From positions 658,922-722,921 of the forward strand of contig CAVWSL010000015.1 in the NCBI GenBank assembly GCA_963757765.1: a stretch of 64,000 nucleotides of DNA, given 5' to 3'. The position numbers and the translations under genes were made by a program. The DNA comes from an uncultured Chloroflexia bacterium (GTDB taxonomy: Bacteria > Chloroflexota > Limnocylindria > Limnocylindrales > CSP1-4). Shown one piece after another: positions 8,916-52,706 of this stretch (the first letter of the stretch is position 1; every line of letters begins with the position of its first letter). A model generated the notes under the pieces. The model was not told the origin of the DNA. It was given only the letters and a program-made list of their open reading frames with translations, and made no database searches.

Positions 8916-9752
8916 TCAGCTGGACGCCACGGCGTCGGTATCGAGCGCTCGCAGCATCGGCGCGGCGACCCGGACCCGTCGCCGAAGGTCGAATCGGTAA
9001 CCCACGGGCAGCGAGTGGAGCACGACGTTGCTGATCATGATGGGTCGATGCGCACGCACCTCCCAGGCATCGGTCTCGGACGCCTGGCCGTCGACGATGG
9101 TGACGCTCCGGCGGCCGATGACCTCCATGACCATGTCCGGCGACACGACACCGCAGGTGTCTTCGTCGATGCCGAGGCCGAGCAGCGCCGGGTTCTGGGC
9201 GATGGTCGCGAGGAGGCGCCCGAGCCGGTTGCGCTGCTGGAAGTGCTGGTCGACGATCACCCCGGGCAGGACACCCAGGCCCGCGGCCATCTGGACCATC
9301 CGCTGCTTGGGCGTGCCGCCGCTCGCGCCGAACGCGACCATGTGGGTGCTCATGGCCGAGGCACCGGCGCTCGTGCCGGCCACCACCGAGCCGTGCCGGT
9401 GTCGATCCGCGATGGCCTGGGCGATGGCGGTGCCACCGATGGTCGACGAGAGCCGCAGCTGGTTGCCGCCGGTCATGAACACGCCGGTGGCGTCTCGCAC
9501 GATGCGCGCGGCGTGGTCGTCGTTCGCCTGCTCCCGGGTCGTCGCGTGGATGGGCGAGACCTGGGCCGCGCCAAGCTCCGTGAACACCTTGCGATACATC
9601 TCGCCCGCGAGCGGCCCCAGGGAGGAGGCACTGCTGATGACCGCGATGCGTGCGTCGGGACCACCGGCAAGGGCGACGAAGCGGGTCAGGATGACGCGCT
9701 CGCGAACCTTGTCCTCGGCGCCCCCGATGACCATGATGTGCCCTTCGGACAC
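8916..9752 (-). CDS. cphB: cyanophycinase (peptidase S51)
   Basis: Motifs VIGGAED, FMTGGNQ and GTSAGA (serine nucleophile) at ~278 aa, upstream of cphA on the same strand. Confidence 0.9.
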   Translation of the reverse strand: MSEGHIMVIGGAEDKVRERVILTRFVALAGGPDARIAVISSASSLGPLAGEMYRKVFTELGAAQVSPIHATTREQANDDHAARIVRDATGVFMTGGNQLRLSSTIGGTAIAQAIADRHRHGSVVAGTSAGASAMSTHMVAFGASGGTPKQRMVQMAAGLGVLPGVIVDQHFQQRNRLGRLLATIAQNPALLGLGIDEDTCGVVSPDMVMEVIGRRSVTIVDGQASETDAWEVRAHRPIMISNVVLHSLPVGYRFDLRRRVRVAAPMLRALDTDAVASS

Positions 9753-10360
9753 AGACTTATACGTCCCGTCGATTGGTCATCTGCGAAGGATACGCGAGCA
9801 CGGACCCGGAGAACCCTTACGTTTCGGATGCCCGCGGTCGGCGCGCACGATCCCGGTGCTCCCCTCGGCCACGATGGCTGATGTCGGCTACTCCTGATCA
9901 CGCCACCAATCGGAAGGCAAGGGTGGACCCAGACGCCGGGTGCGGTCTTCGGTGAAGCGACCTTGGTGCGCGTATCTGGTGCCGCTCCCACGATCGTGAA
10001 CAGCTGATGCTTCAAGCTCTCGCATTCGCGGCAGAATGCGCCGTCGTAAATATCATCGAGCTCACGGAAGCTGGCCATTGCCAACGTCTCCATGCCTGCC
10101 TCGCGGGCGCGCGCAGTGCGCGTACGCGCCTCGCTATGCAGGGAGCCGATACGCCTCGTGCCCGTGACAAGCTCAAGTACACCCTGGACAAAGGCCGTAC
10201 GCGGTTCGGTCGGCCTAAGGGCTACCTGGCGGTCGAACTCCTGTAGAAAGAGCTGGGCGTCGATGGTTTCCAAGGCACTGTTGCCGGTCTGCTCGACCAT
10301 CCAGCGAAGCGCCCGCTCCACCCTCCCCCTACGTTCTGAAGGTACGGGCTCTGATGGCAT
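9686..10360 (-). CDS. hypothetical protein in a lower-GC stretch (start at MPSEP); the C-terminal extent is doubtful
   Basis: The region ~9900-10400 drops to ~58-60% GC. The minus frame reads protein-like text (ALETIDAQLFLQEFDRQVALRP...FRELDDIYDGAFCRECESLKHQLF) and then decays into low-complexity residues before the stop. Confidence 0.2.
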   Translation of the reverse strand: MPSEPVPSERRGRVERALRWMVEQTGNSALETIDAQLFLQEFDRQVALRPTEPRTAFVQGVLELVTGTRRIGSLHSEARTRTARAREAGMETLAMASFRELDDIYDGAFCRECESLKHQLFTIVGAAPDTRTKVASPKTAPGVWVHPCLPIGGVIRSSRHQPSWPRGAPGSCAPTAGIRNVRVLRVRARVSFADDQSTGRISLCPKGTSWSSGAPRTRFASASS

Positions 10361-42158: not shown

Positions 42159-45100
42159 TCAGAGCGCGGGCACCGGCTCCAGGAGCCAGGCGTCGAGCGG
42201 CCTGACGTCCGACACCTGGGCCTGGACGGATGCGTCCAGCGAACGTGCCGCGGTGATGGCCGTGTCCATGCTCGTCAGGCAGAGGATCCCCTCCGAGACC
42301 GCCGCCAGTCGGATGGCCGCCGCGTCGCGCACCGGCCCCGAGCGTGGCGATGGCGTGTTGACCACGAGCGATACCTGGCCAGACGCGATGACGTCGAGGA
42401 TGAGCGGGGCGCCGATCACCCCTGCCGACCCGACCGCACCCGCGAGCGGCGTCACATCCGTGACCTCGTAGCCGCTGGCCCGAAGGGCTGCCGCCGTGCC
42501 CGCCGTGGCGGCGAACCGGTAGCCGACCGCAGCCAGGGATGCCGCGAGCTCCGGCAATCGCGGCTTGTCCCGGTCGGAGATCGACACCAGCACGAGCGCG
42601 CCGTCGGGACCCGGCACCGGCGGCCGCAGGGCGGCCGCGAGGAGCGCCTTCGCCAGCGCCACCCGCTCGTCGGTGTGGATCCCGATGACCTCGCCCGTGG
42701 AACGCATCCCGGGTCCGACGGCCGGATCGACCCCCTTGAGCTTGCTGGTGGAGAACACCGGCGCCTTGACCGCGACGACACCCGGCGGCCGGCGCAGCCC
42801 GCCGGACCAGCCAAGCTCCGGGAGCGTCGCGCCCAGCGCCACGCGGGTCGCCAGCTCCACCATCGGCACACCGGTGACCTTGGACAGGAACGGCACCGTC
42901 CGGCTGGCGCGAGGGTTGACCTCCAGCAGGTAGACCCCGTCGTCACGGACGATGAACTGGGCGTTGATGAGCCCTCGGACGCCGATGGCCAGCGCGACAC
43001 GGGTCATGGCGTCGACGATGAGCCCCTGGTCGGCGGCGGATAGCCGCTGCGGGGGGAACACCGCCACCGAGTCACCCGAGTGGACGCCGGCTCGCTCGAC
43101 ATGCTCCATGAGCCCCGGGATGAGCACGTCGACACCGTCGCAGACCGCGTCGACGTCGACCTCGAGGCCCTCGAGATAGGCATCGATGCGCACCGGTCGA
43201 TCCTCATCGACCGCCGTCGCCAGGGCCAGCTGACGGGTCAGGTCCTCGGGTCCGTAGCAGAACTCGATGGCGAGGCCGCCGATGACGAAGCTGGGTCGGA
43301 CGATGACCGGATACCCGACCCGGTCGGCGACCGCGATGGCCTCTTCGATGGAGGTCGCCATACCCCCCTCGGGCTGTGGGATACCGAGCCGGTCGACCAG
43401 GTTCGCGAAGCGGGTCCGCTCCTCCGCGAGGTCGATGGTCTCGAGCGACAGCCCGGGCAGGTCGACCCCACCCGCGACCAGCGACGCGGCCAGGTTGAGA
43501 GGCGTCTGGCCGCCGAACTGGACGAGCGCCGGCAGGGGCGCGTCGCCGGGCGCGGTCTCGGCGTGGATGACCTCGAGCACGCTTTCGGGATCCAATGGCT
43601 CGAAATAGAGTCGGGATGAGGCATCGAAGTCGGTGGACACGGTCTCGGGGTTGGAATTGACCATCACCGCCTGCCAGCCATCCCGGCGGAGCACCTCGGC
43701 TGCCTGGACGGCGCAGTAGTCGAACTCGATGCCCTGACCGATGCGCACGGGACCCGATCCGATGACGAGCGCCGCTGGCCGGGTCACGGGTGGCGCCTCG
43801 GGGGGCGACCCGGTGGCCGCGTACGTGGCGTAGAAGTAGGGCGTCTCGGCAGCGAACTCGGCAGCACAGGTATCCACCATGGCGAACCCGGGCCGCAGGC
43901 CGATGGCGATCCGGCGGTCCGCCACGGCACGCTGCGACAGGCCCGTCAGGGTCGCGATGTCCCGATCACCGAACGATGCCCGCTTGGCCGCCACGAGCAG
44001 GCCATCGGTGATGGCGCTCCCCTCCTCGGTCATCTGGTGGGCCAGATCCACGAGGCGCTCCATCTCCGCCAGGAACCACGGCGCGACACCGGTGACCTGG
44101 TGCAGCTCGGCGGCCTGGACGCCCCGTCGGAGGAGCGCCAGCAGTCGCCACAGGCGCGAGTCGGACGGCGCCAGGAACTGCCGCAGCAGGCGCGGCCGGG
44201 AGGCGACACGCCCGCCTATGGCCGGCCCCGACAATGCCGCGAGATCGTCGTCCCAGGTCAGGTCCTCCGCCAGGAATCCCGCCCCCGCCTGCTCCAGGCC
44301 GCGGAGCGCCTTGTTGAGCGCAGCGCCGAAGGTCCGGTCGATGGCCATCACCTCGCCGGTCGCCTTCATCTGCGAGCCCAGGGAGCGGTCGGCACCCGGG
44401 AACTTGTCGAACGGGAAGCGCGGCAGCTTGACCACCACGTAGTCGAGGGCAGGCTCGAAGGCCGCCACCGTCGTCTTCGTGATCGCGTTGGGGATCTCAG
44501 CGAGTCGGCGCCCGATGGCGATCTGTGCCGCGACCCGTGCGATGGGGTAGCCGGTCGCCTTGGAGGCCAGCGCGGACGACCGCGACACGCGCGGGTTGAC
44601 CTCGATGACCGCGTAGTCGTTGGAGTCTGGGGAAAGCGCGAACTGGACGTTGCAGCCACCCTCCACGCCCAGCGCCCGGATGATGGCCAGCGCGGCGGAC
44701 CGCAGGCGCTGATGGACCGGGTCGGGCAGTGTCTGGACGGGCGCGACCACGATGGAGTCGCCGGTGTGGACGCCCAGCGGGTCGACGTTCTCCATCGAAC
44801 ACACCGCGATGCAGGTGTCGTCGGCATCGCGCATGACCTCGTATTCGATCTCCTGCCAGCCCACGAGGCAGCGCTCGATCATCACCTGACCGATGGGGCT
44901 CAACCGAAGCCCGGCACGACATCGTTCCCGGTATGCCTCCTCCGTGTCCACGATGCCGCCACCGGTACCACCCAGGGTGAACGCGGGACGGATGACGGCC
45001 GGCAGCCCGATCTCGACCAGCGCCTGCTCGATGCCCGCCTGGCGCTCATCCTCCGTGTCGCCCTGGATGATCACCGACGGCGCATACGGCTGGCCGATCC

Positions 45101-46718
45101 GATGGAGCAGGTCCCGGAACCGCTCCCGGTCCTCGGCCATCTCGATGGCCTCGATGGACGTGCCCAGCAGCCGCGTCCCGTACCGCTCCAGCAGCCCCGC
45201 ATGGGCGACATCGACCGCCAGGTTGAGCGCGGTCTGGCCACCCAGCCCGGCCAGGATGCCCTCCGGCCGCTCGCGCTCCAGGATCCGCTCCACGGACGCC
45301 ACGGTGAGCGGCTCGAGGTAGACGGCGTCGGCCACCCCGGGGTCGGTCATGATCGTGGCCGGGTTGGAGTTGAGCAGGATGGTCCGGATGCCCTCCTCGC
45401 GAAGGGCTCGACACGCCTGGGTGCCCGCATAGTCGAACTCGGCTGCCTGGCCGATGACGACCGGTCCGGATCCGATGATGAGCACCGACGCAGGCTTGGG
45501 CGGCGGTGGCGTTCGGGGTGCCGCGGTGACCCGGCTGGGTTGGATCGATCCGGCCGCCACGATGCGAGCGAGGAATCGGTCGAACACCTCGACCGCGTCG
45601 AGCGGCCCGGGCGACCCCTCCGGGTGGTACTGGACGGTCTCGATGGGCAGCCTCTCGTGCCGGAGCCCCTCGACGCTGCCGTCATTGAGGTTGCGCTGGC
45701 TGACCGCGAACCCCGAGCCACGGGGCAGCGAGTCGGCGTCGACCGTGACCTCGTGGTTCTGGGCGGTGACCTGCACCCGGCCGGTGCCCAGGTCCTCCAC
45801 GGGGTGGTTGGCACCGTGATGCCCGAACCGGAGCCGACGTGTCTCGGCTCCCGCCGCACGAGCCACGATCTGGTGACCGAGGCAGATGCCCAGGAGCGGC
45901 CGGCCATCGGCGATGAGTGCCTTCGCGAGCGCGATGGGCCGCTCCAGCCGGACCGGGTCACCGGGACCGGGTGAGAGCACCACGCCCGAGACATCGGGCC
46001 GGAGCACATCCGCGGCGGTCGCGGTATGGGGCAGCACCCGGACACGTGCCCCGCGCCGCCGGAGCGAGCGCACGATGTTCGCCTTGAGACCGTAGTCCAC
46101 GACCGTCACGAGAGGTCCCCGGTCGCCCGCTTCATAAGGCGCCGCAACGGACACCCGGCTCACGAAGTCCTGGTCCTCCCAGCGCGGCAGCGACTGTGCC
46201 CGAAGGACGGCACTCGCCGCATCCGTCTCGCCGGGGGCGGTGATGATGGCCCGCTGACAGCCGGTCTGGCGCATGTGACGCGCCAGTGCCCGCGTGTCCA
46301 GGCCAGCGATCGCAGGCACGCCCTCGGAGCGCAGGAGGTGGACGATCTGACGCGCGCGGCCCAGGACCGCTGCGGTCGCATGGCTGACGACAAGGCCGCG
46401 CAGCCAGGGTCGCTCGGACTGGTCGTCACCCGCCGACCGGCCGTGATTGCCGATGAGCGGATAGGTCATCACGACCACCTGCCCGGCGTACGAGGGGTCG
46501 GTACAGACCTCCTGGTACCCGGTCTGGGAGGTGTTGACGACCAGGTCGCCACCCGACGCCACCGGCGCACCGAACGACACGCCGTGGAACACCGTGCCGT
46601 CCTCGAGGGCAAGCAGGGCCGGCCCGTGGGCGCCGATGCGTGGGTCGACCACGGCATCCGAAGGTATCGGCACGCTGAAGCGCACCTGTGCGCCGTCGGT
46701 GCCGCCCATGAGGGTCAC
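42159..46718 (-). CDS. carAB: carbamoyl-phosphate synthase, small (glutamine amidotransferase) and large subunits fused in one ORF
   Basis: 1519 aa. CarA region (LGICLGHQIV...HHGANHP) joins through a Pro-rich linker (AAGSIQPSRVTAAPRTPPPPKP) to the CarB start (ASVLIIGSGPVVIGQAAEFDYAGTQ). Two ATP-grasp halves and a C-terminal MGS-like domain follow. Confidence 0.85.
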   Translation of the reverse strand: MTLMGGTDGAQVRFSVPIPSDAVVDPRIGAHGPALLALEDGTVFHGVSFGAPVASGGDLVVNTSQTGYQEVCTDPSYAGQVVVMTYPLIGNHGRSAGDDQSERPWLRGLVVSHATAAVLGRARQIVHLLRSEGVPAIAGLDTRALARHMRQTGCQRAIITAPGETDAASAVLRAQSLPRWEDQDFVSRVSVAAPYEAGDRGPLVTVVDYGLKANIVRSLRRRGARVRVLPHTATAADVLRPDVSGVVLSPGPGDPVRLERPIALAKALIADGRPLLGICLGHQIVARAAGAETRRLRFGHHGANHPVEDLGTGRVQVTAQNHEVTVDADSLPRGSGFAVSQRNLNDGSVEGLRHERLPIETVQYHPEGSPGPLDAVEVFDRFLARIVAAGSIQPSRVTAAPRTPPPPKPASVLIIGSGPVVIGQAAEFDYAGTQACRALREEGIRTILLNSNPATIMTDPGVADAVYLEPLTVASVERILERERPEGILAGLGGQTALNLAVDVAHAGLLERYGTRLLGTSIEAIEMAEDRERFRDLLHRIGQPYAPSVIIQGDTEDERQAGIEQALVEIGLPAVIRPAFTLGGTGGGIVDTEEAYRERCRAGLRLSPIGQVMIERCLVGWQEIEYEVMRDADDTCIAVCSMENVDPLGVHTGDSIVVAPVQTLPDPVHQRLRSAALAIIRALGVEGGCNVQFALSPDSNDYAVIEVNPRVSRSSALASKATGYPIARVAAQIAIGRRLAEIPNAITKTTVAAFEPALDYVVVKLPRFPFDKFPGADRSLGSQMKATGEVMAIDRTFGAALNKALRGLEQAGAGFLAEDLTWDDDLAALSGPAIGGRVASRPRLLRQFLAPSDSRLWRLLALLRRGVQAAELHQVTGVAPWFLAEMERLVDLAHQMTEEGSAITDGLLVAAKRASFGDRDIATLTGLSQRAVADRRIAIGLRPGFAMVDTCAAEFAAETPYFYATYAATGSPPEAPPVTRPAALVIGSGPVRIGQGIEFDYCAVQAAEVLRRDGWQAVMVNSNPETVSTDFDASSRLYFEPLDPESVLEVIHAETAPGDAPLPALVQFGGQTPLNLAASLVAGGVDLPGLSLETIDLAEERTRFANLVDRLGIPQPEGGMATSIEEAIAVADRVGYPVIVRPSFVIGGLAIEFCYGPEDLTRQLALATAVDEDRPVRIDAYLEGLEVDVDAVCDGVDVLIPGLMEHVERAGVHSGDSVAVFPPQRLSAADQGLIVDAMTRVALAIGVRGLINAQFIVRDDGVYLLEVNPRASRTVPFLSKVTGVPMVELATRVALGATLPELGWSGGLRRPPGVVAVKAPVFSTSKLKGVDPAVGPGMRSTGEVIGIHTDERVALAKALLAAALRPPVPGPDGALVLVSISDRDKPRLPELAASLAAVGYRFAATAGTAAALRASGYEVTDVTPLAGAVGSAGVIGAPLILDVIASGQVSLVVNTPSPRSGPVRDAAAIRLAAVSEGILCLTSMDTAITAARSLDASVQAQVSDVRPLDAWLLEPVPAL

Positions 46719-47416: not shown

Positions 47417-48349
47417 TCATGGTGACACCGATGACCCCGGTGCATCCGGCGCAGCCGGCGAGGGCGCCGTGACGAGCCGCAGCGGCGCGCCGGCCGCGTC
47501 CGATGCGTCCCTGGATGGCGGCGCCTCGTGGAACAGCGGCCGCACCGCCTCCGCGACCAGGTCCGCCCAGCCTGCGTACTGCTTGCCCGACGGATGGAGG
47601 TCGCGCCCGTCGACCGGCACCGCGACGAGCGAGGGGTCCTGCTGGACGCGGTCGCTGATGGGCGAGATGTCCACGACCGCGATACCGCGCGCCTCCGCCG
47701 CTGCACGGAGCAGGTCATTGAACTCGCGGATGCGCGCGCTCTTCACCTCCGGCTCCCCGTAGATGTCGCCGTCGGGCATGAGGGTGTAGTCCGGGGTCGT
47801 GACCACCACGACCCGATCGGCGTCCACGAGCGTCAGGACGGTATCGAGGATGTGGGCCATGTTGGCGCTGTACGTCTCCGCGGGCGTGCGCAGGATGACG
47901 TCGTTCACGCCCACCTGGACGCTCACGAACTGGGGCTCGAGCTCGACGAGCTGCGGCAGCTGGTCCTGGATCACCTGGCGGCTGGCACTGCTGCGTCCGG
48001 CGAGGTTCGCCACGATGTCCAGGTCCAGGTCCGGTCGCAGGATGCGCACCAGCTGGTTGGGCCAGCGGTCGGACTGCTTGACACCATCGCCAAAGCTGTA
48101 CGAATCGCCGAGCACGACATATCGCAACGCCCCGGGACCGACGGTCGGCGCCACGGGGCCGACGAGGCCGGTCGGCAGCGCCTCGGGCGACTCACTCGTC
48201 TCATCCGGGGCTGTCACGGCGCAACCCGCGAGCAGCGGGACGAGCATCACGATGCCCAGCAACCAGGGGATGACGGAGGGACGACGCACTGCCCCGAGGA
48301 TAGCGCGAGCGTCCGCGGAGCTCCTCGCACGGGTCTGCTTGCGCCTCAC
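47417..48349 (-). CDS. SGNH/GDSL hydrolase, lipoprotein
   Basis: Lipobox LLAGC, GDSY block (YVVLGDSYSFG) and a GVNDV block. Confidence 0.7.
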   Translation of the reverse strand: MRRKQTRARSSADARAILGAVRRPSVIPWLLGIVMLVPLLAGCAVTAPDETSESPEALPTGLVGPVAPTVGPGALRYVVLGDSYSFGDGVKQSDRWPNQLVRILRPDLDLDIVANLAGRSSASRQVIQDQLPQLVELEPQFVSVQVGVNDVILRTPAETYSANMAHILDTVLTLVDADRVVVVTTPDYTLMPDGDIYGEPEVKSARIREFNDLLRAAAEARGIAVVDISPISDRVQQDPSLVAVPVDGRDLHPSGKQYAGWADLVAEAVRPLFHEAPPSRDASDAAGAPLRLVTAPSPAAPDAPGSSVSP

Positions 48350-48432
48350 GGGTATCCTCGATGCCTTCGAGCGTCCGAAGCGACCGGCTGGTCCACCGAT
48401 GACGCCCGGCAGGCACCAGACTGGAGGTCCAC

Positions 48433-49407
48433 TTGGCGCGATCGATGTGGCGGGGAGCCATCCAGTTCGGGCTGGTCACCATCCCGGTGCGCCTCTACCT
48501 GGCGACCGAGTCGCGCGGCGGTCTCTCGTTCAACCTGCTGCACAAGGAGGCGAAGGAGGACGGCAAGGTCGTGCCCTGCCTCCGACGCATCCAGATGAAG
48601 ACGTACTGCCCGGAGCACGGTGAGATCCCGCGCTCCGACACGCTCCGCGGCTACGAATGGAGCAAGGGCCAGTACGTGATCATCGAGGAGTCCGACTTCG
48701 AGGCCGTGCCGCTCCGGACCGTGCGCGCCATCGAGATCGACCAGTTCGTGGAGACCACCGCCCAGCGGAGCGCGCCCATCTTCGTCAAGCAGGCCTACTA
48801 CCTCGAACCGGAGCCCATCGGTCGCAAGGCGTTCGGGCTGCTCAAGACCGTGCTCGCGGAGTCGGGCCTCCAGGGCATCTGCAAGATCGTGCTCAAGGAC
48901 AGGGAGCAGCTGTCGGTGCTCGATCCCTATCAGTCCACGATGCTCCTGTCGACCATCTACTGGCCGGACGAGGTCCGGGACCTGGGCGAGCTGGACGTCC
49001 CCGCGGAGGAGGCGGAACCAAAGCCGGCAGAGATCGCTATGGCCAAGCAGCTGGTCGCGGCCATGACGGGCGAGTTCGAGCCGGAACGATATCGGGACGA
49101 GTACCGGGAGGCACTGCTCAAGGTCATCGAGGCCAAGGTGGACGGACAGCCGGTCGCGATGCCCGAGCCGGTCGCCGAGTCGAAGGGCCTCACCGATCTG
49201 ATGGCCGTGCTCGAGGCGAGCGTCGCGGCGGCCCGCGACGCTCGCAAGACGGCACCGGCAGCGATGGCCACCGCGGATCCCGACGAGCCCATCCCGGTCA
49301 CCCGCGGCCGCGCCAAGGCGAAGCCCAAGGCGAGCGCCGCAGGCGCGCCCGAGGCGGCGACCGAGGCAAAGGCGGCGACCCCGCAGCGGCGCCGCAAGTC
49401 GGCCTGA
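48433..49407 (+). CDS. ku: Ku protein (non-homologous end-joining DNA-end binding)
   Basis: MWRGAIQFGLVTIPVRLY... with a C-terminal Lys/Ala-rich tail. The start may be the ATG at 48445. Confidence 0.9.
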   Translation: MARSMWRGAIQFGLVTIPVRLYLATESRGGLSFNLLHKEAKEDGKVVPCLRRIQMKTYCPEHGEIPRSDTLRGYEWSKGQYVIIEESDFEAVPLRTVRAIEIDQFVETTAQRSAPIFVKQAYYLEPEPIGRKAFGLLKTVLAESGLQGICKIVLKDREQLSVLDPYQSTMLLSTIYWPDEVRDLGELDVPAEEAEPKPAEIAMAKQLVAAMTGEFEPERYRDEYREALLKVIEAKVDGQPVAMPEPVAESKGLTDLMAVLEASVAAARDARKTAPAAMATADPDEPIPVTRGRAKAKPKASAAGAPEAATEAKAATPQRRRKSA

Positions 49408-49440
49408 TGTGGCCGGTCCCGTGACGGTCCCGCTCCGCAC

Positions 49441-50157
49441 ATGACCGCCCGGGTACGAGCCGCACCCGACCAGCTGGCGCTGGCCCTGGATGCCCTCGTC
49501 ACCCCCGGGGACACCGGGCGGTCCGACGCCTGGTCCGAGCCCATGCTGCCGGGTGCCGGCGAGGGCCCATTCGACGATGCCGCCTGGTTCTTCGAGCCCT
49601 GGTGGCCGGGTATCCAGGCCATGGTCGTCATCGAGGGGACACACCTCAGCCTTCGGACGACCCAGCTCAGCGACCCCCTTCCCGCGTTCCCGGAGCTGGC
49701 CACGATGCCCCAGCAGGTGGCGGCGCGGCAGGCGGTCATCGTGGGCACGCTGCTCGTCCTGGACGCGGACGGCCGTCCCGATCCGGACGCCCTGCGGCAG
49801 CGACTTGCCGACCCGGATGCGCGGACGGGCAGCGGGGCCTTCATCGCCGCCGATCTCATCGGATGGGAGCAGCGACCCCTCATCAATCAGCCCTTCGCGA
49901 CCCGGCGGAGCAGTTTGCTCGAGGTCGTCGCCGATGGCGACCGCTTCCTGGTCAGCCGGGGACTCCACGGTGAGGGCGAGACGCTCGCCAGTGCCGCGGC
50001 GGCGATGGGCATCGATGGCGTCTCGGCGCGCCGGCTCGATGCACCCTGGCATCCCGGCATGGCCAGTGAGGCGTGGCTGCGCCTGCCGGTGGCCGCGACC
50101 ACGGTCGGTCCAGTCCGGCCACTGCTGGTCCTACTCCAGCGTCTGCCGCTCGACTGA
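49441..50157 (+). CDS. ATP-dependent DNA ligase nucleotidyltransferase-like domain protein with the catalytic lysines substituted (probable pseudoenzyme)
   Basis: Motif I FEPKWDG is replaced by FEPWWPG. Motif III-like FIAADLIGWEQRPL. Motif IV/V-like DGVSARRLDAPWHPGMASEAWLRLPV carries R where the ligase lysines normally sit. There is no OB domain. Confidence 0.55.
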   Translation: MTARVRAAPDQLALALDALVTPGDTGRSDAWSEPMLPGAGEGPFDDAAWFFEPWWPGIQAMVVIEGTHLSLRTTQLSDPLPAFPELATMPQQVAARQAVIVGTLLVLDADGRPDPDALRQRLADPDARTGSGAFIAADLIGWEQRPLINQPFATRRSSLLEVVADGDRFLVSRGLHGEGETLASAAAAMGIDGVSARRLDAPWHPGMASEAWLRLPVAATTVGPVRPLLVLLQRLPLD

Positions 50158-52631: not shown

Positions 52632-52706
52632 TGGTGAGCCGGGAAGGACTCGAACCTTCAACCAAGTGATTAAGAGTCACTTGCTCTGCCATTGAGCTAC
52701 CGGCCC
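52632..52706 (-). tRNA. tRNA-Lys (anticodon CTT), CCA encoded
   Basis: Minus strand reads GGGCCGGTAGCTCAATGGCAGAGCAAGTGACTCTTAATCACTTGGTTGAAGGTTCGAGTCCTTCCCGGCTCACCA. Seven-bp acceptor stem with one G-U pair, anticodon loop CUCUUAA, T-loop TTCGAGT. Confidence 0.85.

What the first reader, a model, noticed from the sequence alone, without database searches (positions are those of the whole stretch)
48433..50157. Ku gene followed by a ligase-like nucleotidyltransferase domain whose catalytic lysines are all substituted; no LigD in the window
Downstream of ku sits a 238-aa protein alignable to the LigD ligase NTase domain (motif III FxADLxxW, motif IV/V region DGVSARRLDAPWHPG…WLRLPV). Motif I KxDG has become WxPG, and the motif IV/V lysines are arginines. 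It lacks an OB domain. The signature is that of a pseudoenzyme: a Ku partner or scaffold without adenylation activity, or a decaying LigD remnant.
Basis: partly seen in the sequence, partly recalled or inferred. Interest (0 to 1): 0.6.

Follow-up and report, generated by a model that had tools for sequence, protein, structure and literature searches.

The report
Dead ligase partner gene beside Ku
Next to the DNA-end-binding gene ku sits a conserved, selection-maintained copy of a DNA-ligase catalytic domain that has lost every residue needed for ligation, which suggests that bacterial end-joining repair in this lineage has a previously undescribed third, non-enzymatic component.

Summary
Window 48433-49407 encodes a bona fide bacterial Ku. 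Window 49441-50157 encodes a 238-aa protein with the adenylation (NTase) fold of LigD-type ATP-dependent ligases. All nucleotidyl-transfer residues are replaced (motif I KWDGxR to WWPGxx, III E to T, IIIa F to A, IV K to R, V KxK to RxP), and there is no OB domain. It is not a decaying remnant. More than 100 species-level genomes of class Limnocylindria (Chloroflexota) carry it, never with the lysine, with dN/dS of 0.04-0.26. Ku lies immediately upstream in 78 of 80 loci, often with overlapping stop and start codons. In 19 related loci a complete LigD follows directly (ku-pLig-ligD). The window itself has no LigD. Lysine-less relatives occur in Dormibacterota inside ligD-HNH-ku-pLig-helicase clusters. 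All groups share two disordered terminal peptide motifs: an N-terminal QLxLx[LF], which matches the beta-clamp-binding consensus, and a C-terminal RPhhxhhxRLP[LF]. The most likely function is a non-catalytic NHEJ accessory or scaffold subunit working with Ku, and with LigD where present. Clamp tethering is a hypothesis. No curated family or paper found describes it.

The parts
48433..49407 (+). ku gene (324 aa): Ku core plus a basic C-terminal tail
   Evidence: TIGR02772 scores 240 bits against a cutoff of 150. PF02735 matches at 2.9e-34. The core and the minimal C-terminal motif DLMAxLExSV are conserved across 77 loci. The tail (residues 261-324) has net charge +6.
49441..50157 (+). pLig: 238-aa lysine-less LigD-type adenylation-domain protein (pseudo-ligase). 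No OB, Pol or PE domain
   Evidence: Sequence, profile and fold matches to ligase adenylation domains. Motif comparison with real LigD. Family conservation. Purifying selection.
49471..49488 (+). N-terminal peptide motif QLALAL (residues 11-16) in a low-confidence, presumably disordered segment. It matches the hexameric beta-clamp-binding consensus QLxLxL
   Evidence: Q11, L12 and L14 are invariant or nearly so. The motif is present in 64 of 84 loci, and the others carry xLPL[EQ]F. pLDDT is 53-57 for residues 1-30. The consensus is taken from PMC4564189. The background rate is at most 0.7% of ORF N-termini.
49588..49611 (+). Motif I remnant FFEPWWPG (residues 50-57). W54 occupies the position of the adenylated lysine, and P56 that of the aspartate
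   Evidence: Alignment to Mtb LigD FEGKWDGYR and to same-class LigD FEPKWDGYR. W in 115, R in 3 and K in none of 118 homologues aligned at this position (2 further sequences are gapped there).
49741..49764 (+). Motif III remnant VGTLLVLD (residues 101-108). T103 replaces the ribose-contacting glutamate
   Evidence: T in 108 of 120 homologues.
49840..49857 (+). Motif IIIa remnant FIAADL (residues 134-139). A137 replaces the adenine-stacking phenylalanine.
   Evidence: S or A in 117 of 120 homologues.
50014..50034 (+). Motif IV remnant DGVSARR (residues 192-198). R197 replaces the lysine
   Evidence: R197 in 119 of 120 homologues.
50074..50091 (+). Motif V remnant WLRLPV (residues 212-217). R214 and P216 replace the two lysines
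   Evidence: R214 in 118 of 120 and P216 in 116 of 120 homologues.
50116..50154 (+). C-terminal peptide motif RPLLVLLQRLPLD (residues 226-238), nearly invariant, in a low-confidence segment. Presumed docking peptide for an unknown partner
   Evidence: R226, P227, L228, L229, L231, L232, R234, L235 and P236 are invariant. pLDDT is 57-60. The motif is also present after the OB domain in P0139 and in the Dormibacterota group, so it is not an OB remnant.

Best explanation
The 238-aa protein (called pLig here) is a catalytically dead descendant of the LigD ligase adenylation domain. [quoted passage not shown]

Shown:
- It has the ligase NTase fold but lacks the adenylatable lysine and every other canonical AMP-binding or catalytic side chain, and it has no OB domain. 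It therefore cannot carry out the canonical self-adenylylation, AMP transfer and nick-sealing reaction.
- It is under strong purifying selection.
- It is co-transcribed, and often translationally coupled, with ku across class Limnocylindria.
- In many relatives it sits between ku and a complete ligD.

Inferred:
- It is made in step with Ku and joins the Ku or Ku-LigD complex at broken ends as a scaffold or regulator. This would be analogous to the catalysis-independent structural role of eukaryotic ligase IV and the XRCC4/XLF scaffolds.
- Its folded core is acidic. Its two conserved disordered terminal peptides serve as docking motifs.
- The N-terminal QLxLx[LF] most plausibly binds the hydrophobic cleft of the beta sliding clamp.
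- The C-terminal RPLLxLLxRLPL binds a second partner: Ku, LigD, or the second clamp protomer.
For: Fold and homology:
- LigD profile matches, the Mtb LigD structure by sequence, and the AlphaFold model with its Foldseek matches.

Loss of all catalytic residues:
- Comparison with 19 same-class LigD proteins that keep them.

The family is real and constrained:
- 693 homologues, and the top 120 all have W or R, never K, at the lysine position.
- 113 species-representative genomes carry it, all Chloroflexota/Limnocylindria apart from one record titled Pleomorphomonadaceae (L050).
- dN/dS is 0.04-0.26.

Linkage to NHEJ genes:
- Ku is directly upstream on the same strand in 78 of 80 loci, with a median gap of 8 nt and 26 of 82 pairs overlapping or abutting.
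- ku-pLig-ligD (PE-Lig-OB-Pol) in 19 loci.
- Dormibacterota relatives (K to D/E) lie in ligD-x-HNH-ku-pLig(-UvrD/PD-(D/E)XK helicase) clusters.
- P0139 (K to S) lies 4 nt upstream of a 932-aa LigD.

Terminal motifs:
- They are conserved across all lysine-less groups and sit in low-pLDDT termini.
- The N-terminal motif equals the published clamp-binding consensus QLxLxL / QLxLF (QL(S/D)LF).
- One relative begins MPQLSLF.

No new catalytic site:
- No invariant His or Cys appears. Most invariant residues are structural ones shared with LigD.
Against: - No interaction or activity was measured. Everything about function rests on gene order, conservation and motif resemblance.
- A large paralogous group (G2) has the same two terminal motifs but stands alone, away from ku and ligD. 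The motifs therefore need not be Ku-specific, and the superfamily may have a role beyond NHEJ.
- The G1 core is acidic (median net charge -6.5, pI about 4.9), whereas real ligase cores are about +1. This argues against simple DNA-end binding and leaves the molecular role of the fold open.
- Whether the window's genome has a LigD or LigC elsewhere could not be checked.
- Clamp-binding motifs are short and degenerate. The LigD-linked subclade often lacks the Q.
Confidence: 0.6

Rival explanations
1. pLig is a decaying LigD fragment (a pseudogene or a recent truncation) with no function.
For: It lacks the catalytic residues and the OB domain. PF01068 scores below its gathering threshold.
Against: The degenerate motifs are nearly invariant in 118 of 120 homologues. 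dN/dS is 0.04-0.26. The ORF is intact in 113 species-level genomes. New invariant residues and terminal motifs have been gained.
Confidence: 0.02
2. pLig is still an enzyme with a non-canonical chemistry on the ligase fold. Examples would be acting on pre-adenylated DNA ends (sealing or de-adenylation) or using a different nucleophile or cofactor.
For: The fold is intact with high confidence. Arginines replace the motif IV and V lysines and are invariant (R197, R214), so a phosphate-binding site could survive. Group G2 keeps the motif III Glu and the motif IIIa Phe.
Against: In the window's group, every adenine, ribose and metal-contacting side chain is replaced at once (K, D, R, E, F, K, K). 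No invariant His, Cys, Ser or Lys nucleophile appears. The residue at the lysine position differs between groups (W, S, A, D, E, L), which is not what a new conserved nucleophile would look like. There is no OB domain to complete a ligase active site.
Confidence: 0.1
3. pLig is a negative regulator: a decoy that occupies Ku, or the LigD-binding surface of Ku, to restrain end joining. An example would be keeping Ku off replication-associated one-ended breaks when tethered to the clamp.
For: It is acidic, whereas the Ku C-terminal tail is basic (+6). It is co-expressed with Ku. It is a ligase look-alike without activity. It carries a clamp-type motif.
Against: Stable operonic coupling with ku, and with ligD in 19 loci, is more typical of subunits of one machine than of an antagonist. 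There is no direct evidence either way.
Confidence: 0.15
4. In genomes like this one, where ku-pLig has no adjacent LigD, pLig adapts Ku to a different ligase. Candidates are NAD-dependent LigA or a LigB/LigC-type ATP ligase. This would give LigD-independent end joining.
For: There is no LigD, PE or Pol gene in the 64-kb window. 61 of 80 related loci also lack an adjacent LigD. Five loci have a three-domain ATP-dependent ligase 3.5-4 kb upstream. The review PMC9690074 states that the clamp contacts DNA ligase directly in E. coli.
Against: LigD may simply be encoded elsewhere in these genomes, which could not be tested. Where LigD is adjacent, pLig is still present, so it is not an alternative to LigD.
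Confidence: 0.12

Closest known systems
Ligase (adenylation + OB) domain of bacterial LigD, e.g. M. tuberculosis Rv0938 LigDom (PDB 1VS0, 6NHX); NCBIfam TIGR02779 / PRK09632
   Same: The adenylation-domain fold is the same, and sequence similarity is clear (E 1e-13 to 8e-26). It is encoded next to ku. Structural residues are shared: PFDD...W.FEP, FPEL, VLD..GRPD, DLL.
   Different: It has no motif I lysine, and motifs I, III, IIIa, IV and V are all substituted. It has no OB domain with motif VI and no Pol or PE domains. The core is acidic. It has gained conserved N- and C-terminal peptide motifs. It scores far below the family cutoffs (74 against 228 bits for TIGR02779).
Stand-alone ATP-dependent ligases LigC / Lig-only LigD homologues (NCBIfam PRK08224, PRK07636)
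   Same: It is a small stand-alone protein derived from the same ligase lineage (E 2e-15 and 2e-13).
   Different: LigC-type proteins keep the lysine and the OB domain and are active ligases. pLig has neither.
Catalysis-independent structural role of eukaryotic DNA ligase IV, and the XRCC4/XLF/PAXX scaffolds, in NHEJ (from my own knowledge of the field, e.g. yeast Dnl4 catalytic mutants, PMC3694833 listed)
   Same: Conceptually the same. A ligase-fold protein contributes to end joining without ligating, and short terminal peptides tether the accessory factors.
   Different: There is no homology of the accessory parts. Ligase IV is still an enzyme. The bacterial protein is a dedicated dead paralogue, and its role is inferred, not shown.
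Bacterial beta-clamp-binding proteins with a terminal QLxLF / QLxLxL motif, e.g. Hda with an N-terminal motif and Pol II, IV and V with C-terminal motifs (PMC4564189, PMC9690074)
   Same: A short Q-L-x-L-x-[LF] peptide in a disordered terminus. One relative starts MPQLSLF.
   Different: Clamp binding was not tested here. The Q is often missing in the LigD-linked subclade and in Dormibacterota (xLPLEF, TLPIAL). No NHEJ factor has been reported to bind the clamp, as far as I could find.

Membership tests
ATP-dependent DNA ligase / covalent nucleotidyltransferase (Pfam PF01068 DNA_ligase_A_M) | Adenylation (NTase) domain fold | tested here: met
   The AlphaFold model has pLDDT 86. Foldseek hits to ligase adenylation domains have E 6e-15 to 1e-12 and TM-score about 0.65-0.71 normalised to the query.
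ATP-dependent DNA ligase / covalent nucleotidyltransferase (Pfam PF01068 DNA_ligase_A_M) | Motif I KxDGxR with the adenylatable lysine | tested here: not met
   WWPGIQ aligns with KWDGYR. None of 118 homologues has K at this position.
ATP-dependent DNA ligase / covalent nucleotidyltransferase (Pfam PF01068 DNA_ligase_A_M) | Motif III Glu, motif IIIa aromatic residue, and motif IV and V lysines | tested here: not met
   E to T103, F to A137, K to R197, K to R214, K to P216.
ATP-dependent DNA ligase / covalent nucleotidyltransferase (Pfam PF01068 DNA_ligase_A_M) | Profile score at or above the curated threshold | tested here: not met
   PF01068 scores 23.2 bits against a gathering score of 26.2.
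ATP-dependent DNA ligase / covalent nucleotidyltransferase (Pfam PF01068 DNA_ligase_A_M) | C-terminal OB domain (PF04679, motif VI) | tested here: not met
   There is no PF04679 match. The protein ends 21 residues after motif V.
ATP-dependent DNA ligase / covalent nucleotidyltransferase (Pfam PF01068 DNA_ligase_A_M) | Self-adenylylation and nick sealing | not testable with these tools
   This needs a biochemical assay.
LigD (NCBIfam TIGR02776 / TIGR02779 / PRK09632) | Score above the equivalog cutoff, and presence of Pol and/or PE modules | tested here: not met
   Scores are 55.5 against 373, 74.4 against 228, and 90.5 against 989 bits. No Pol or PE similarity exists anywhere in the window.
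Bacterial NHEJ gene cluster (Ku with partner genes) | Conserved adjacency and co-orientation with ku | tested here: met
   78 of 80 genome loci, with the other 2 cut off at a contig end. The median ku-stop to pLig-start gap is 8 nt.
Bacterial NHEJ gene cluster (Ku with partner genes) | Co-occurrence with a catalytically competent LigD | tested here: inconclusive
   LigD is adjacent in 19 of 80 related loci and in Dormibacterota clusters. It is absent from this 64-kb window. The rest of the genome is not available.
Beta-clamp-binding proteins | QLxLF / QLxLxL-type peptide in an accessible, disordered segment | tested here: met
   QLALAL at residues 11-16, with pLDDT 53-57. Conserved in 64 of 84 G1 loci and 108 of 120 G2 proteins. 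The consensus comes from PMC4564189.
Beta-clamp-binding proteins | Physical binding to the DnaN cleft | not testable with these tools

The most novel reading that the evidence does not exclude
Bacterial NHEJ in Chloroflexota and Dormibacterota is a three-component system. In this reading, a dedicated dead-ligase subunit uses a clamp-binding motif to couple Ku-bound DNA ends to the beta sliding clamp, and through it to clamp-bound polymerases or ligases. This would be a bacterial counterpart of PCNA/XRCC4-type scaffolding. In genomes lacking LigD it could allow LigD-independent end joining.
Probability: 0.25. Interest if true: 0.85.

Novelty: new variant of a known kind. Interest (0 to 1): 0.66.

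Why it matters
Bacterial NHEJ is treated as a minimal two-protein system of Ku and LigD. A conserved, selection-maintained dead paralogue of the ligase domain is translationally coupled to ku across more than 100 species, and related forms occur in a second phylum. It would be a third core component, and a natural example of a ligase fold used structurally. That idea is so far supported mainly by engineered catalytic mutants of eukaryotic ligase IV.

The possible clamp-binding motif would link end joining to the replication clamp, which has not been reported for bacterial NHEJ.

There is also a practical consequence. These proteins are annotated in public metagenomes as 'bifunctional NHEJ protein LigD' or 'ATP-dependent DNA ligase'. 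Surveys that score genomes as NHEJ-positive from a ligase-domain hit next to ku will therefore mis-score these lineages.

Tried and rejected
- Looking up the window's own protein in the contig index, to reach the rest of its 2.95-Mb genome, found nothing. Whether a LigD lies elsewhere in this genome therefore stays open.
- I first took the C-terminal tail for a remnant of the first OB strand. I rejected this because P0139 and the Dormibacterota group have an OB domain and still end in the same motif.
- P0158 (526 aa) looked like a natural Ku-pLig fusion. Its sequence shows out-of-frame stretches on both sides, so it is an artefact of a frameshifted assembly and not fusion evidence.
- I considered DNA-end binding by the retained arginines as the main role. 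This is weakened by the acidic core, with pI about 4.9 against about 8.1 for real ligase cores.
- The complete absence of lysine in the protein looked striking. It is only mildly unusual in this lysine-poor genome: about 4 expected, P about 0.02.
- The promoter and terminator scan around the pair found nothing.
- PADLOC defence models gave no hit.
- NCBIfam has no model that claims any of the lysine-less groups.
- The afdb50 structure library was unavailable.
- Conservation of the Ku C-terminus showed only the usual minimal motif and no obvious pLig-specific feature.
Full report
**What is there**

The window is about 70% G+C throughout. At 48433-49407 (+) lies a standard bacterial ku gene of 324 aa. 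It scores 240 bits against TIGR02772, above the cutoff of 150, and matches PF02735 at 2.9e-34. Its TGA stop is at 49405-49407.

Thirty-three bases later, in the same reading frame, the first available start codon (ATG 49441) opens a 238-aa ORF that ends at 50157. I call this protein pLig.

The neighbours are a divergently transcribed GDSL hydrolase upstream and a convergent signal peptidase downstream.

**pLig is a ligase adenylation domain**

- NCBIfam LigD models match at E 8e-26 (PRK09632) and 9e-21 (TIGR02779), but far below their cutoffs.
- PF01068 scores 23.2 bits, just under its gathering score of 26.2.
- The M. tuberculosis LigD ligase domain (1VS0, 6NHX) aligns at E 1e-13 over residues 45-214.
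- An AlphaFold model built on 45 family members is confident (mean pLDDT 86, residues 31-220 mostly above 90).
- Foldseek places the model among adenylation domains of ATP-dependent ligases, including LigD, at E 6e-15 to 1e-12.

**The catalytic apparatus is gone**

I aligned pLig with Mtb LigD and with 19 LigD proteins from the same bacterial class.

| Motif | Real LigD | pLig | Change |
|---|---|---|---|
| I | EPKWDGYR | EPWWPGIQ | The adenylated K becomes W54, D becomes P, R becomes Q |
| III | DGEVV | VGTLL | E becomes T103 |
| IIIa | AFDL | AADL | The adenine-stacking F becomes A137 |
| IV | EGAMAK | DGVSAR | K becomes R197 |
| V | WLKLK | WLRLP | K becomes R214, K becomes P216 |

The chain stops 21 residues after motif V and has no OB domain.

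Its 'motif III' (FxADLxxW) is motif IIIa.

Its statement that the window lacks LigD also holds. tblastn with PE, ligase-OB and Pol queries from a same-class LigD hits only pLig in the 64 kb. Queries from the related lysine-less groups give the same result.

**It is a conserved family, not a wreck**

- A search of 5.8 billion proteins returned 693 homologues. The best 120 are all 146-270 aa and carry Chloroflexota or Limnocylindrales labels where named.
- In their alignment, FFEPWWPG is present in 118 of 120. The lysine position is W in 115, R in 3 and never K.
- GTLLVLD, SARR and WLRLPV are nearly invariant too.
- A scan of one genome per species found the gene in 113 genomes. Of the 80 loci retrieved, all are MAGs of Chloroflexota, mostly labelled Limnocylindria or Limnocylindrales. 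One is titled Pleomorphomonadaceae (L050).
- Nei-Gojobori dN/dS for the 45 most similar ortholog pairs (86-97% amino-acid identity) of 341 computed is 0.04-0.26, mostly near 0.1.

This rules out a decaying remnant. It also rules out a sequencing or mutational oddity.

**Linkage to NHEJ genes**

- Ku is immediately upstream on the same strand in 78 of the 80 genome loci. The other two are cut off by a contig end.
- The distance from the ku stop to the first usable pLig start has a median of 8 nt. In 26 of 82 cases the genes overlap by 1-4 nt or abut.
- In 19 loci a complete LigD (PE, ligase with KWDG, OB, Pol) starts about 20-100 nt after pLig, giving ku-pLig-ligD.
- Five other loci have a three-domain ATP-dependent ligase 3.5-4 kb upstream.

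pLig therefore coexists with a working LigD rather than replacing it, at least in part of the class.

**A wider lysine-less superfamily**

I ran a profile search of 1.84 billion cluster representatives. It showed about a dozen clusters (at the library's 50% identity clustering) of the window's type, which I call G1. Interleaved with true ligases were other LigD-like groups that lack the lysine.

- **G2** (about 250-290 aa). Motif I is FEP[W/S/A]WGG. It is also from Limnocylindria/Chloroflexota, with 1406 hits. In the two long contigs examined it stands alone, away from ku.
- **G3** (about 330-375 aa, adenylation plus OB domain). Motif I is FSV[D/E]W[D/E]G. It comes from Dormibacterota. It lies directly after ku in L085. 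In L088 and L092 it sits inside the cluster ligD, small protein, HNH, ku, pLig. In L092 a UvrD/PD-(D/E)XK helicase-nuclease follows.
- **P0139** (K to S, with a weak OB match) sits 4 nt upstream of a 932-aa LigD.
- **P0147** (Dehalococcoidia label, K to L) stands alone on a short contig.

In a crude neighbour-joining tree of the adenylation core, all lysine-less groups fall on one side and all lysine-bearing ligases on the other. That includes the Limnocylindria LigD proteins. This is consistent with a single loss, but it is not a rigorous test.

No NCBIfam, Pfam or PADLOC model claims any of these groups.

**Two conserved terminal peptides**

Residues 1-30 and 221-238 of the model have low confidence (pLDDT 53-60). 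Both segments nevertheless contain the most conserved short motifs in the family.

*N-terminus.* The motif is Q-L-x-L-x-[L/I/F], which is QLALAL at residues 11-16 in the window.
- It occurs in 64 of 84 G1 loci. The LigD-linked subclade carries xLPL[E/Q]F instead.
- It occurs in 108 of 120 G2 proteins, mostly as QLSLRL.
- G3 has TLPIAL, and P0147 begins MPQLSLF.
- The background frequency of the pattern in the first 30 residues of ORFs from the same DNA is at most 0.7%.
- It coincides with the published beta-clamp-binding consensus, pentameric QLxLF or hexameric QLxLxL (PMC4564189; QL(S/D)LF in PMC9690074).

*C-terminus.* The motif is RPLLVLLQRLPL(D).
- It is invariant at nine positions in G1.
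- It occurs in 119 of 120 G2 proteins.
- G3 has RPTVLSTLPF.
- It follows the OB domain where one exists, so it is an independent motif and not an OB leftover.

**How it most likely works**

Shown:
- The protein has a ligase fold without any canonical catalytic residue.
- It is under strong purifying selection.
- It is tightly coupled to ku.
- It is frequently adjacent to ligD.
- Conserved peptide motifs sit in both disordered termini.

Inferred:
- pLig is a non-catalytic accessory subunit of the end-joining machinery. It is made together with Ku and acts as a scaffold or regulator at Ku-bound ends.
- The terminal peptides are docking sites. The N-terminal one most plausibly binds the beta clamp. 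The C-terminal one binds Ku, LigD or a second clamp protomer.

Points that limit this reading:
- The G1 core is acidic (median net charge -6.5, pI about 4.9), whereas catalytic ligase cores have about +1 and pI about 8.1. The Ku tail is basic (+6). This fits protein binding better than DNA binding.
- The unlinked G2 paralogues share the motifs, so the partner need not be Ku.

I put 0.6 on the accessory-subunit model and about 0.35 on genuine clamp binding.

Rivals:
- Cryptic enzyme, 0.1.
- Negative regulator, 0.15. This overlaps with the main model.
- Adaptor to another ligase in LigD-less genomes, 0.12.
- Pseudogene, 0.02.

**Comparison with what is known**

- The closest family is the LigD ligase domain. 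pLig fails its defining tests: lysine, motifs III to V, OB domain and profile cutoffs. It should not be annotated as a ligase, although JGI pipelines name these proteins 'bifunctional NHEJ protein LigD'.
- Functionally, the nearest analogy is the catalysis-independent structural role of eukaryotic ligase IV and its scaffolds. The yeast Dnl4 paper PMC3694833 is listed. The rest of this analogy comes from my own knowledge.
- The literature searches that ran (two further attempts failed on a term that was too short) and look-ups in a LigD review, a ligase-diversity review, an NHEJ phylogenomic survey and a metagenomic repair-enzyme survey found no description of such proteins.

**Verdict**

The finding is real and its main interpretation is supported. 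It is a new variant of the bacterial NHEJ system: an undescribed pseudo-ligase family that appears to be a third component beside Ku and LigD in Limnocylindria, with relatives in Dormibacterota.

Function and partners remain to be shown. Whether this particular genome has a LigD elsewhere could not be determined.

Noticed in passing
window 42159-46718 (-): A single 1519-aa ORF joins the carbamoyl-phosphate synthase small (CarA, GATase) and large (CarB) chains. In the related locus L002 they are two separate genes whose ends touch (402 aa and 1159 aa). This could be a real fusion or a lost stop codon.
   Followed up: partly
window 52635-52706 (-): A tRNA gene, the only Rfam match at gathering score in the window (71.9 bits).
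   Followed up: no
L086:10001-10792 and L087:10001-10735; also L084:317-1060: The stand-alone lysine-less paralogue family G2 has the same N- and C-terminal motifs but is not next to ku. In both long contigs a polyphosphate gene set lies 4-6 kb downstream (PPK1, CYTH/CHAD, Ppx). In L084 a PPK2 fragment is immediately upstream. The recurrence may be synteny or may be meaningful.
   Followed up: partly
L092:5216-13988 and L088:2680-8578: Dormibacterota carry an extended double-strand-break repair cluster: ligD, a small protein (a 162-aa protein with weak zinc-ribbon matches in L092; 156 aa with no Pfam match in L088), an HNH nuclease, ku, and a lysine-less ligase with an OB domain. In L092 a 962-aa UvrD/PD-(D/E)XK helicase-nuclease follows.
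   Followed up: partly
L003:4833-5762 and 9051-10004 (same contig as L021): There are two Ku paralogues about 3 kb apart. Only the second is followed by pLig.
   Followed up: no
window 47417-48349 (-): A GDSL-family hydrolase is transcribed divergently from ku, with 83 bp between the two start codons. The same arrangement recurs in about 31 of 83 related loci. It is probably conserved synteny within the class.
   Followed up: partly
window 49441-50157 (+): pLig contains no lysine at all, and the family median is also 0. It is acidic (pI 4.7). The genome is lysine-poor (about 1-1.7% in neighbouring genes), so about 4 lysines would be expected (P about 0.02). This is mildly unusual rather than decisive.
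   Followed up: yes
window 48346-50052 (-): A 568-aa ORF on the opposite strand overlaps both ku and pLig. It looks like the long antisense 'shadow' ORFs common in 70% G+C DNA. It was not examined further.
   Followed up: no
P0158 (protein from the representative search): This is an apparent 526-aa Ku-pLig fusion protein in a public assembly. Its sequence contains out-of-frame stretches, so it is a frameshifted gene call and not a natural fusion.
   Followed up: yes
L079:4734-6530 (also L050, L062, L073, L076): A three-domain (LigB/Lig1-like) ATP-dependent DNA ligase with intact motif I (EDKYDGIR) lies 3.5-4 kb upstream of ku-pLig in five loci of one subclade.
   Followed up: partly
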